Below the pieces are notes generated by a model that saw only the letters and a program-made list of their open reading frames with translations, was not told the origin of the DNA and searched no databases. This document shows positions 55,400 to 60,374 of a stretch of DNA of 64,000 nucleotides, piece after piece. The DNA comes from Octopus vulgaris (lineage: Eukaryota). Every line of letters starts with the position of its first letter. Within the stretch, counting starts at the first letter, position 1. The stretch spans positions 90,830,001 to 90,894,000 of the forward strand of contig OX597816.1 of assembly GCA_951406725.2 (NCBI GenBank), given 5' to 3'. Position numbers and translations under genes: made by a program.

Positions 55400-56966
55400 C
55401 GAATTAATGACATCAACGAAAAATATTCCTATTCCACCAAGGAATCTTATCGCCAAAACAAAAATGATCTGAGGAGAATGAAATGGAAGGCCTATTTTTT
55501 CAATGAAGATGCGTGCAGCCCTCATACAAGAAGAATTACGAGTTCACATCTTATAAAATCCCGCCACATATTAAAGACCTAAAAGAATTTGAAGACGATC
55601 TTATAAAGTTAGTTAGAATGTACAATTCAACCAAAAATCCAACAAGTTTCAACGCACATTACAGATATACATCGAACCTTTCAAACATCAACGAATAGGT
55701 TTATTAAAGCAGATAAATCAAAAATTATTTACGAAGTAAACAACCAAACACACAACAAACTACTAACCGACAACATAACTAAAACATACAAGGGAACAAA
55801 CCCCACCACATATAAGTCAATTAATATAGAAGCAAAAATTCTTGCCACAAAGTTTTAAATAGAAGACAAAGTAGAAAAGCTCATTCAATGAAATCCTTTT
55901 ATAACTCTGAAAGGTCATAAAAGTAATTTCATGCAAAATCCTAGTTGTAGATTAAAAATTCCACAAAAAGAGAAATAGAAATTATTAGTAAATCGATATT
56001 AGATATTATACGACATATCAGTGTACACTCAAGTCTTACCCAATGGATATGCAGTAGTGCAACTACTGAATGATTTAAGAAAATAGAAGATAAACACAAA
56101 TGCAAATTCATATAATTCGATATTGTAGAGTTCTACCCCTGGATCTCCAAAAGCTTGCTTCAGGAGGCACTTGAATTTAATAAAACATATGTCACGATAT
56201 AAAATACTGATAGAAATATAGTCATGAACACAAGGGAGTCATTACACTTTCATAGTAATTCCTACTGTTTCAAAAAATGGAGACAAGTTATTTGACATGG
56301 CAATGGGAGCTACGACGGTGCAGAGATAACTGACTTTGTAGGCCTTTATATCCTAGATATCCTTAAATATGAAATAAAAAAGCTAACATAAGTTTATATA
56401 TGGACGATTGCCTGGGAGTAGTTCATAACAAAAAATGGACATGATATGGATAGAATATGGAAAAAAAATTTGCAAGATATTTAGCTAATTAGGCCTGAGA
56501 ACCATAATTAGTACAAACCTTAAAGAAACCAGCTTCCTAGACACTAACATGAGCCTTAACACATAAAATGTAAACCCTACCACAATCTTATGGTTCAAAC
56601 CACCTTATAGCATGAATATAGCCACTAACACAGCTAGGAAATTCTTAAAACTAATGGACAACCACTTTCCACATTCACAGAAATACCACAAGATCTTCAA
56701 CAGAAATACTGTTAAAGTTATACTTGCCTCCCCAATATAGGGCCAATAGTATTCAATCACAATAAACATAAACACATCAGAAACACCCCCGAAAGACTAT
56801 GTAACTGTAGATTCCCAAACCGCTGCCCTTTAAACAACAACTGTCTCAAGAAAAAACTCGTATACAAGGCCAAGATCACGGACCACAACGGAATAGCAAA
56901 GACATATATCGGAATGACGGGCAACTCTTCCAAGGAAAGGTATACACAACATCTGGCGTCATTCAC
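55400..56966 (+). pseudogene. Penelope-like element RT plus GIY-YIG ORF, frameshifted and 3'-truncated (possibly Naiad-type)
   Basis: Ordered motifs KNIPIP, RRMKWKAYFF, DLKEFEDDL, KADKSKN, FITLKGHK..F..NPSCRL, FDIVEFYP (~56116), GSYDGAE (~56305), LYMDDCLG (~56394, RT catalytic), FLDT, KIFNRNTVKV, CNCRFPNRCPLNNNCL (~56800), VYKAKI...YIGMTGNSSKERYTQHLASF. Confidence 0.92.
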
Positions 56967-58182
56967 ACTCTTACACTTACATATATATGTAAGTATGTCA
57001 TTATTAAAATAATGAAGACGATATCTTCAACTATATTCATGAGAAAATGTCGCAGCATGCTCTATTAAATAGTAAAAGAATGATAAAAAAAAGAACAAAT
57101 ATATTTAATGCATTCACATAGTTTTCTTATTTTTATTCGGAAGCGTCACCATGTCATTTCATTAGAGTTTCCCGGTCGTAACCGATTCCTACGGTGTGTT
57201 ACAGCCTAAGTCGCAATTCTGAAATCTGGCAAAATTAGCTTGTTTGCAAGTGTGTGTGTGCGTGCGCGCCCGCATGCGTGTGCGTATGTGTGCGTGTGCA
57301 TGTGTGTGTATGTGTGTGTGTTCTTTTCCGGTTGGTAAATCAGATAAATGAAACACTATACCATGTGCTATATATACAGGTATACCTCGATTTACGACGG
57401 AAATTGGTTTCTAAACAAGGGACTTAACCCGAAAAACGAGGTAACAATGAAAAATACTTCATTAAGAAAAAAATTATTAGCATATATGTGTTTTAATAAA
57501 TGTTTTGTACATATTTTCACGTGTATTTATTTGATAATTCCTTTTCAGTATTGGATTTTAAACGATCTGTCTAAAAAAAAAAAAAAAACTATGCATTTAT
57601 ATATGTTCACTTTCATCGGCGTAAAGTGGAAAAAGACGTAACTCGAAACAACGGTAGTTGAGGAGTACCTAAACACACACACACACTCCAAAAATTCTCC
57701 ACGTGAGATTCTTATGTTAATTAGATGCACACACTTGGGTTCATGCATCGACTATTCAACTAACATACGAACTGAACCACATATTTATAAACACCAGGAG
57801 CTCTCTTAACTCAACAAGTCGTATTGCATTGTTAACAAGCGGCTTGAACTTTTTCAAGAACTAATGAAACTGAAAGAAAAATCATACACAGGCGCAGGCG
57901 TGGTTGTGTGGTAAAAAGCTTGCTTCCAACCACGTGGTTTTGGGTTCAGTCACTACAATAGCCTCGGGCCGATAAAAGCCTTGTGAGTGGATCTGATGGA
58001 TGGAAACTGAAAGAAGCCCGTCGTATATATATATATAATTCATAAATGAGGGCAAAGGAAAAAATTTCTAATGCCAAATATGCCGAAAAATTGGACATAT
58101 TGTCCATTAACCATATAATGTTTTCACAATACGCACGTTACTCGAAAGAAGGTCGACAGAATTTTCTAAAAAATTCCATTAT

Positions 58183-58240
58183 TACCATATCGGACCGATT
58201 TCAGAGTTAGCTACTAAGAGCTCTCTCTTCATCAGTGATA
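58183..58240 (-). ncRNA. Type I hammerhead ribozyme, intact core
   Basis: TATCA-CTGATGA-AGAG...CTCT-GAAA-TCGG T CCGA-TA-TGGTA: stems I, II and III all pair; AUA site. Confidence 0.85.
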
Positions 58241-58508
58241 CATGTGGCAAAAGAAATAAATGAGATACTTACTCATACCCATGGAAGAAGCAAATACTAA
58301 GTCACGGGCACAACTAAGTACCCCAAATACATCCAAAAATAGAAATACTTCAGCCCATTCGAGGCACGTGCGATTTGAACTGAGGCTCTCACAGAGTGAG
58401 TTAGTTAGTTCGGAAGTGAACGCTTAAATTTATATCAAATTGATATAAATTTAAGCGTTCACTTCCATGGGTATGAGTAAGTATCTCATTTATTTCTTTT
58501 GCCACATG

Positions 58509-58566
58509 TATCACTGATGAAGAGAGGGCTCTTAGTAGCTAACTCTGAAATTGGTCCGATATGGTA
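58509..58566 (+). ncRNA. Type I hammerhead ribozyme, intact core
   Basis: TATCA-CTGATGA (58514-58520)-AGAG...CTCT-GAAA (58547-58550)-TTGG T CCGA-TA-TGGTA. Predicted cleavage after 58561. Confidence 0.82.
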
Positions 58567-59558
58567 ATGGAATTTTTTAGAAATTTCTGTCGACCTTTTT
58601 TCGAGTAACGTGCGTATTGTGAAAAAATTATATGGTTAATGGACAATATGTCTAATTTTTCGGCATATTTGGCATTAGAAATTTTTTCCTTTGCCCTCAT
58701 TTATGAATTGTTTATAACTTTAACCGTTAAAGGTATTTTTTAATATGCTGGCCATTGATGAAATTTTTTTCGAGAAAATATTCTTTTCGAAAAGAATTTT
58801 ATCCTCACATTTGATATATATATATATGTTTGTATGTCTGTGTTTTGTCTTCTCACAAACGCTTGACTACCGATATTGGTGTGTTTACGTCCCTGTAACT
58901 TAGCGGTTCGGCAAAGGGGTACGACAGAAAAAGTACTAGGCTTACAAAGAATAAGTCTTGGGGTCAATTTGTTCGAATAAAAGCTGGTGCTCCAGCATTG
59001 CCGCAGTCAAATGACTAAAACAAGTAAAAGCATAAAAGAATAAACACACACATACACATACACAAATAAATAAATAAAAATACGCAGCACACAAAGAGAC
59101 GAAAAATGAATTCAACGACCATCCATGCTGTTAAAACTATTCATTTAATCTTTTATATTTTACTTTACAAGCCTTCGACAGAAGGAAAGGAAGGAAGGGA
59201 TTCCCGACCTTCATTGATCGCCCAAACTACTAAGATTGATAGGGTTGTTCAGCTCCAGTCAGTCGACAGATTCAAATTAATTTTGTTGTCAACTGCTTCA
59301 CAAATGTAAGTGGATTCAGTGCTGAAATGTATTGCAGTACGGTGTGCTTTCATGGTCAGCTTATTCTTATTCATCACTTTCCTTTGTGAACTTTCTATTG
59401 TTTTTCGGAAACTAATGGTATTTTTAATTAATGATGATGAGAAAGCCAACTACTTTGAGGAGTTGAGATATATGAATTGGAGAATTGGATACGTTGTGTC
59501 AATAGTATTACAGTTCTGCTAGAAAAACAATGTTTTATCAATCTGTCTGTCTGTCTGC

Positions 59559-59753: not shown

Positions 59754-59799
59754 CACACAACCATATGAAGACAGACAAACATACAGACAGATATAAGTA

Positions 59800-60105
59800 G
59801 AAACGCAATGGCCCAGTGGTTAGGGCAGCGGACTCGCGGTTGTAGGAACGCAGTTTCGCTTCCCAAACCGGGCGTTGTGAGTGTTTATTGAGCGAAAAAC
59901 CTAAAGGTCTACGAGGCTCCGGCAGTGGTGGGGAGATCCCTATTGTACTCTTTCGCCACAACTTTCTCTCACTCTTTCTTCTGTTGGCCTGCTCGCTTAG
60001 CCCGCAGGGTGGCGTCATTTGAAGGCTAAAACAATGCGAAGCGCATTGTGACCAGCGATGTGTAGCAACATCTGATAGCCTGTTCGGTCACGGTGATCAC
60101 GGTGA
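59800..60105 (+). mobile_element. tRNA-derived SINE family C
   Basis: tRNA-like head GCAATGGCCCAGTGGTTAGGGCAGCGGACTCGCGG...GTTTCGCTTCCC (A and B boxes), a unique body and a tandem tail CACGGTGAT-CACGGTGAT. Confidence 0.75.
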
Positions 60106-60374
60106 TATATATATATATATTAGAAAGAATACCAGGCTTTACGCACACACACACAAAGTACTAGGGTATATTCGTATGTTTGTTTGTGTCTGTGTGTGTG
60201 TGTTTGTGTGTATGAAAGAAGTTGAAAATGTATTGGGATTCGTTTAGATATTTTATTTAAAAATTTTTAAAGAATTAACCGGTTTCATAGGTTTTTCTGA
60301 TCTTCAAAAGTTGAGATAGAAAGATGTGGAGCTATGCTTCAAATGTCTTGCTTCAGTGTACATACATACATACA

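What the first reader, a model, noticed from the sequence alone, without database searches (positions are those of the whole stretch)
58037..58813. Young double-hammerhead fold-back nested in a SINE's (TA)n tract
Seen: ~250-bp arms with only a few mismatches and small indels, both retaining complete three-stem hammerheads. The element splits a family B SINE exactly at its internal (TA)n. Only the right arm continues into a ~100-bp tail. Inference: a recent plus-strand PLE 3' end with an inverted 5' copy. If transcribed, the long duplex would compete with ribozyme folding, a possible co-transcriptional switch.
Basis: partly seen in the sequence, partly recalled or inferred. Interest (0 to 1): 0.75.

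Follow-up and report, generated by a model that had tools for sequence, protein, structure and literature searches.

The report
Two-armed Penelope-type retrozyme insertion in SINE
This mirror-image stretch is one of hundreds of similar insertions of a small non-coding jumping element that carries a predicted self-cutting RNA motif; its shape is a known pattern, likely written when both cut DNA strands each started copying the element's RNA, and it is unlikely to be a regulatory switch.

Summary
The anatomy is real. Two 250-bp arms (96% alike) each hold an intact type I hammerhead motif, the insert splits a SINE at its (TA)n, and only the right arm has the ~104-nt tail. The hammerheads lie on opposite strands, so any transcript has one, always preceded by its own antisense; it is predicted to stay off, which is not a switch. 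The parent is a 503-bp non-coding tandem unit (retrozyme-like, hundreds of copies, no coding parent found). Of 71 position-ordered loci, 45 are head-to-head pairs with different junctions. All 36 with two canonical ends pair one tailed with one tailless end (0 like-with-like), while single arms use both ends evenly (12:14). Both ends lie beside a repeated 16-nt motif, and arms of one locus share rare variants (33% vs 5%). Best reading: a Penelope enzyme acting in trans likely primes from both strands of (TA)n at two fixed RNA sites. The layout is published, and this scan already reported the two-site rule on other DNA, including this genome. Added here: a non-autonomous case, a long tail, twin motifs, and signs that the ribozyme core is conserved.

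The parts
57891..58023 (+). 5' half of the host SINE (lacks ~29 bp present in sister copies)
58024..58036 (.). left (TA)n, remnant of the target tract
   Evidence: sequence
58037..58438 (-). left arm: unit segments B-X-A read on the minus strand, ending at the family's tailless 3' end (site A, unit position 397)
58183..58240 (-). type I hammerhead motif of the left arm; core starts at 58235, predicted cut between 58188 and 58187
58288..58411 (-). segment X of the unit, present only in the left arm (the apparent spacer)
58412..58466 (.). central perfect 27-bp hairpin with a 1-nt loop: the head-to-head junction
58440..58813 (+). right arm: B, then a jump over X at a 5-bp CTTCC repeat (58462-58466; junction unique in the assembly), then A and the tail, ending at the tailed 3' end (site T, unit position 503)
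58509..58566 (+). type I hammerhead motif of the right arm; core 58514-58520, predicted cut after 58561
58710..58813 (+). tail between the two family 3' ends; holds a predicted 20-bp stem-loop and starts with one copy of the repeated TATAAATTTAA-CG motif
58814..58827 (.). right (AT)n, remnant or duplicate of the target tract
   Evidence: sequence
58828..59045 (+). 3' half of the host SINE

Best explanation
The element is an ordinary head-to-head insertion of a 503-bp non-coding, hammerhead-bearing repeat into a (TA)n tract, likely made when a Penelope-type enzyme acting in trans cut both strands and each cut end primed copying of the same RNA at a different fixed site. Shown: the unit, its copy number, (TA)n targeting, the one-tailed/one-tailless rule, the repeated motif at both ends, and the common template of the two arms. 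Inferred: (1) the enzyme is an unidentified endonuclease-bearing PLE protein, probably a dimer; (2) one strand primes at site T and the other at site A, 106 nt upstream; (3) the two cDNAs stop at variable points and are joined head to head through short overlaps; (4) the template is a circular or multimeric RNA; (5) here segment X was lost from the right arm between CTTCC repeats, by template jump or later deletion. The copy itself is likely inert, and a transcript through it is predicted to fold as a long duplex with the ribozyme off.
For: Unit and abundance: 428 exact matches of a 22-mer, 0 for the reversed control; 203 matches of the hammerhead pattern. Rule: 45 of 71 position-ordered loci are two-armed, all head-to-head; 36 of 36 with two canonical ends are A+T, none A+A or T+T (binomial p 1.5e-11 against 50%); single arms end at A in 14 and at T in 12 of 26. 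The 9 other two-armed loci, read by eye, show no like-with-like pair. 113 of 116 3' ends abut (TA)4. Both ends lie just 5' of a 16-nt motif alike at 15 of 16 positions. Arms of a locus share 33% of non-majority bases against 5.4% (max 11.5%) in 300 re-pairings of 42 pairs. In 9 of 36 pairs each arm holds at least 20 nt that the other lacks, which one fold-back cannot make. Junction overlaps are mostly 1-4 nt, longer at RNA palindromes. In vitro a Poseidon PLE cuts and extends both strands, starts at two internal sites bounding the tail, and is predicted to be a dimer (PMC11167929).
Against: No coding parent with homology was found (32 GIY-YIG loci checked by blastn; 30 of 89 tail-to-unit junction loci checked). 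In 24 of 36 pairs the tailed arm contains the tailless arm, and the tailed arm is longer in 30 of 36; this fits fold-back equally well. This locus has a perfect central hairpin, the feature that PMC3846280 reads as self-priming. PMC11167929 saw no difference in start site between strands and no homology between start site and target, whereas here site T has ATATA homology to the target. Shared variants could also come from conversion between arms. T+T pairs with both arms under ~130 nt would escape my sampling pattern. Copies are not fully independent.
Confidence: 0.62

Rival explanations
1. Single priming at the tail end; the cDNA folds back and copies itself, and the endonuclease resolves the hairpin at site A (self-priming and resolution, the published type of model). 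At this locus X would have been deleted later from the right arm.
For: 24 of 36 pairs have the tailless arm nested in the tailed arm; perfect central hairpin here and long palindromic junction overlaps at L007, L014, L092, L093 and L011; shared variants between arms; PMC3846280 and PMC8557442 passages propose self-priming and EN-mediated resolution.
Against: 9 of 36 pairs cannot come from one fold-back; 14 of 26 single-armed copies end at site A with no tailed arm; as it stands each arm here holds sequence the other lacks.
Confidence: 0.25
2. Two separate RNA molecules in an asymmetric complex each give one arm.
For: Both arms copy the same region A, and tailed arms reach 700-800 nt, so one linear RNA would need strand displacement.
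Against: Arms share locus-private variants six times more often than random pairs, which needs the same molecule or the same source locus each time.
Confidence: 0.08
3. The fold-back is a functional co-transcriptional switch of ribozyme cleavage.
For: Both motifs have intact cores, and the duplex would indeed compete with ribozyme folding.
Against: The antisense arm always precedes the ribozyme; the penalty is 88-97 kcal/mol, also in the nascent chain; the layout recurs at 45 of 71 loci with random junctions, as a by-product would; the junction is unique to this locus.
Confidence: 0.03
4. Assembly artefact, or a MITE with long terminal inverted repeats.
For: Perfect hairpins can arise in assemblies; TA targets and inverted ends recall Tc1/mariner MITEs (recalled).
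Against: The arms differ at 6 sites plus an indel; the ends are asymmetric; junctions differ at every locus; the parent is a tandem unit.
Confidence: 0.02

Closest known systems
Insertion unit of endonuclease-bearing Penelope-like elements (PMC8557442, PMC3846280; passages read)
   Same: Partial tandem repeats, adjacent inverted 5'-truncated copy in head-to-head orientation, tail often on one end only, (TA)n preference, microhomology at the junction, hammerhead in the repeat.
   Different: No ORF; the tail is ~106 nt rather than 30-40; the one-sided tail is here a strict rule in the sample (36 of 36), where the papers say 'often' or 'optionally'.
Metazoan non-LTR retrozymes (PMC7229834, passages; bioRxiv 10.64898/2026.07.22.740005, parts 1-3 of 5)
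   Same: Non-coding, low-GC tandem unit with one type I hammerhead per unit; proposed to be mobilised by PLEs; dispersed monomers and dimers.
   Different: Unit of 503 bp (above the 150-450 bp of PMC7229834, inside the 51-972 bp of the preprint); mostly 0.1-1.8 units with inverted partners (the word 'inverted' has 0 occurrences in PMC7229834's main text); circular RNA not shown here.
Poseidon PLE of the green anole in vitro (PMC11167929; parts 1-2 of 4)
   Same: Two internal reverse-transcription start sites bounding the tail; both target strands cut and extended; AT-rich target; 5' ends not set by the ribozyme cut.
   Different: There the start sites show no strand difference and no target homology, and the ribozyme is dispensable in vitro; here the sites are used one per arm, one has ATATA homology to the target, and the ribozyme core looks conserved among copies.
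Dimer-dependent type I hammerheads of PLEs (PMC4209133; passages)
   Same: Short palindromic helix III, unstable as a monomer, extra base before helix II.
   Different: Helix III is longer here (4 bp plus 3 nt); activity untested; the two copies at this locus are on opposite strands and cannot form the tandem dimer.
L1 twin priming (recalled, no call)
   Same: Both target strands prime, giving an inverted part with 1-4 nt junction overlap.
   Different: In L1 the second primer lands at variable internal sites and the two parts do not overlap; here both sites are fixed and the arms overlap.

Membership tests
Type I hammerhead ribozyme | Core CUGANGA, GAAA and NUH with helices I-III | tested here: met
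   both arms, helix I 5 bp, II 4 bp plus inner stem, III 4 bp; 0 hits in 20 shuffles
Type I hammerhead ribozyme | Match to an Rfam hammerhead model | tested here: not met
   no hammerhead family listed, even at E<=10
Type I hammerhead ribozyme | Core conserved among copies | tested here: met
   core 10 changes against 28.4 expected (1226 bases), stems 36 against 66.4; L029 and L045 left out as older or compound; copies not independent, and homopolymer noise outside the motif may inflate the expectation
Type I hammerhead ribozyme | Self-cleavage | not testable with these tools
   folding puts the monomer active state 9-13 kcal/mol above the MFE; the helix III self-duplex is -9.7 to -13.9 kcal/mol but is not the cofold MFE
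Non-LTR retrozyme | Non-coding tandem unit with a type I hammerhead in each unit | tested here: met
   503-bp unit, no ORF of 70 aa inside it, tandem hammerhead pairs ~500 bp apart at several loci and a 3.9-unit arm at L125; this locus itself has no tandem pair
Non-LTR retrozyme | Expressed as linear and circular RNA | not testable with these tools
   no RNA holder listed; indirect only: arms run through two cut sites, 5' ends do not cluster at the cut, tandem units within an arm share variants as often as inverted arms do (31% and 33%, both 3.3% divergent)
EN+ Penelope-like insertion | Inverted 5'-truncated copy and one-sided tail | tested here: met
EN+ Penelope-like insertion | Insertion bias for (TA)n | tested here: met
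   113 of 116 3' ends
EN+ Penelope-like insertion | RT plus GIY-YIG ORF, or homology to the pLTR of a coding PLE | tested here: inconclusive
   no ORF in the unit; no convincing homology in 32 GIY-YIG loci; the search was far from exhaustive (150 of 8440 candidates scored)
EN+ Penelope-like insertion | Target-site duplication | tested here: inconclusive
   13-14 nt of (TA)n on each side against a similar-sized tract in intact SINEs; cannot be delimited in a microsatellite
Riboswitch or co-transcriptional switch | Two alternative states of comparable energy and an input | tested here: not met
   88-97 kcal/mol gap; antisense arm transcribed first on both strands
MITE | Fixed symmetric termini and a fixed interior across copies | tested here: not met

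The most novel reading that the evidence does not exclude
A 503-nt circular retrozyme RNA carries two copies of one priming signal 106 nt apart. A dimeric Penelope enzyme docks on both and writes the two arms of an insertion at once, one site per target strand, by rolling round a single circle, and the hammerhead is needed in vivo to make that circle. This would explain PLE inverted repeats, the one-sided tail and pLTR regeneration in one step, and give a minimal 503-nt substrate to test it.
Probability: 0.35. Interest if true: 0.62.

Novelty: new member of a known kind. Interest (0 to 1): 0.3.

Why it matters
The locus itself matters little: it is one passive copy of a known layout. The family is a clean natural data set on an open question, how Penelope-like elements form tandem/inverted insertions and the one-sided tail (called undefined in PMC8557442). 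It offers a short non-coding template with two near-identical end motifs that can be changed one at a time in the existing in vitro assay. The scan has reached the same two-site reading on other DNA many times, so the gain is one more well-counted case, extended to a non-autonomous retrozyme.

Tried and rejected
Rfam: no hammerhead hit. Read support: no RNA holder listed; short-read contigs of 6 runs were too fragmented to span the junction or to show an empty-site allele, so neither artefact nor polymorphism was tested directly. Coding parent: the GIY-YIG-like fragment 1 kb upstream belongs to an old, abundant family (best other copies 64-79% amino-acid identity) whose 3' ends do not resemble the unit (part's output was cut). 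An intact 806-aa ORF at L177 has its own hammerheads and (AT)n end but only a 25-nt weak match outside it. Pfam gave no significant family for these proteins, so 'GIY-YIG' and 'RT' are my reading of motifs, recalled. Idea that the ribozyme cut sets the 5' ends: rejected, no pile-up at unit position 247 among 108 arms. Idea that the whole fold-back is itself the mobile unit: rejected, its B-to-A junction occurs once in the genome. An explicit double-hammerhead energy was not obtained (crashed; one search gave only cofold MFE and helix III duplex). Literature searches listed no paper whose title or abstract start states a one-site-per-arm rule; the library lacks most subscription papers, I read only passages of four of the six papers, and I saw no supplements.

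Full report
Observation. The window holds arms at 58037-58287 and 58462-58709 that are 96% complementary, with 6 substitutions and one 3-nt indel. Each has a type I hammerhead motif with an intact core; these are the only two hits of my scanner in the window, and 20 shuffles gave none. Rfam does not recognise them. The flanks are the two halves of a SINE whose intact sisters in the window have a short (TA)n linker at this place. Only the right arm runs into the 104-nt tail. Not mentioned were a perfect 27-bp hairpin at the centre (58412-58466) and the fact that the motifs point outward on opposite strands.

The parent. The own genome (2.8 Gb) gives 3267 first-look candidates, of which 40 were scored, 428 exact matches of a 22-mer from the arm and 203 of the hammerhead pattern. 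The copies show a 503-bp unit, B-X-A-T, repeated head to tail, with the hammerhead in A. It holds no ORF of 70 aa. The left arm here is B-X-A on the minus strand. The right arm is B-A-T on the plus strand, with X skipped between two CTTCC repeats, a junction found once in the assembly. Arms reach 1.8 units, and one locus on a small contig has 3.9 units. This fits a non-LTR retrozyme, a class described as non-autonomous and PLE-derived (PMC7229834, passages; bioRxiv 10.64898/2026.07.22.740005, parts 1-3 of 5). I found no coding parent, but that search was shallow.

The layout is the family's normal product. I took all loci behind the first 100 of the 428 pattern matches, in order of position: 71 loci after merging overlaps. 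Of these, 45 have two arms, all head to head with 3' ends outward and different junctions; 26 have one arm. 3' ends fall at two places only: site A (unit position 397) and site T (503), and 113 of 116 abut (TA)n. All 36 two-armed loci with two canonical ends pair one A with one T end; none is A+A or T+T. Single arms end at A in 14 and at T in 12 cases. Adding 22 top-scoring loci gives 43 of 43. The 9 two-armed loci with one odd end, read by eye, contain no like-with-like pair: four reach site T after an internal deletion, two stop about 30 nt short of site A, one runs about 16 nt past T, one ends elsewhere, and one is compound. T+T pairs with both arms shorter than about 130 nt would have been missed. 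Both sites lie just 5' of a 16-nt motif that matches at 15 positions.

One template per insertion. In 42 loci whose arms overlap by at least 60 nt, the arms share 33% of their non-majority bases, against 5.4% (maximum 11.5%) in 300 random re-pairings. At this locus both arms carry the rare pair T203 and A296, seen together in no other sampled arm. Tandem units within one arm share variants at the same rate (31%) and the same divergence (3.3%; 21 long arms). This is what one circular monomer would give, but a young multimer or conversion between neighbours would too. Arms often run through two predicted cut sites, and 5' ends do not cluster at the cut, so the template is uncleaved or re-ligated.

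Mechanism. The inverted copy, one-sided tail and (TA)n bias are described for endonuclease-bearing PLEs (PMC8557442, passages; PMC3846280, passages), and the latter paper proposes self-priming. A Poseidon protein in vitro cuts and extends both strands and starts at two internal sites that bound the tail (PMC11167929, parts 1-2 of 4). The simplest reading of my counts is that each cut strand primes at one of the two sites and the two cDNAs are joined at short overlaps (mostly 1-4 nt). In favour: 9 of 36 pairs cannot be made by one fold-back, and tailless single arms exist. Against: 24 of 36 pairs are nested as fold-back predicts, the tailed arm is longer in 30 of 36, and this locus has a hairpin centre; if X was deleted after insertion, fold-back with cutting at site A explains this copy as well. 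I put two-site priming at about 0.6 and fold-back at about 0.25.

The ribozyme and the switch idea. Helix III is a weak palindromic hairpin, of the kind said to work as a dimer (PMC4209133, passages). The active fold is 9-14 kcal/mol above the minimum for isolated motifs and single arms, and 88-97 kcal/mol above it in the whole element, already when the chain has just passed the cut site. On either strand the antisense arm comes first, and only one sense motif is present. There is no on-state and no input, so a switch is not supported. Across copies the core shows 10 changes against 28 expected and the stems 36 against 66; variants shared within a locus are 6 of 2059 positions in the motif against 80 of 10831 outside. 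This suggests that source copies need an intact ribozyme, unlike the in vitro result, but copies are not independent and alignment noise outside the motif may inflate the contrast.

Not resolved. Short-read contigs could not span the junction or show an empty allele, and no RNA holder was listed.

Novelty. The layout and the element class are in print. I stated the one-site-per-arm reading before looking at earlier notes. The look-up then showed that the scan had reported it repeatedly on other DNA: 111 notes hold the search words, in at least 22 genomes, and one of the 8 shown is from this genome. My five paper searches did not list a paper stating the rule. Verdict: a real but ordinary insertion; a new family of a known kind with useful counts on an open mechanism.

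Noticed in passing
L125:720-3278 (G000:C55): A 3.9-unit arm with an inverted 1.4-unit partner that still follows the A+T rule; units 2 and 4 share a 28-bp deletion, as if a two-unit circle had been copied twice (or an assembly or conversion effect on a small contig).
   Followed up: partly
L177:1987-4404 and L178: An intact 806-aa PLE-like ORF (RT and GIY-YIG motifs by my reading; no Pfam hit) with an Asn-rich stretch, different hammerheads upstream (1772) and downstream (4851), both with palindromic helix III, and a short tail ending in (AT)n.
   Followed up: partly
window 55613-56979: Decayed PLE-like coding fragment with a GIY-YIG-like end, cut off at a TA run; member of an old family with 8440 first-look candidates.
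   Followed up: partly
L028, L075: Arms that jump from inside the unit straight to the last ~10 nt of the tail at CACAT/CTCA microhomology, suggesting template jumps just after priming at site T.
   Followed up: no
L045, L134: Compound loci where a young copy sits beside or inside an older, 77-83% identical relative of the same family, so an older subfamily exists.
   Followed up: no
L011, L045, L050, L105, L197: Other copies of the family also sit in or beside the (TA)n linker of the same SINE family, so splitting this SINE is not special.
   Followed up: partly
window 59799-60107: A second SINE-like family with a tRNA-like head, flanked by (TA)n, 750 bp downstream.
   Followed up: no
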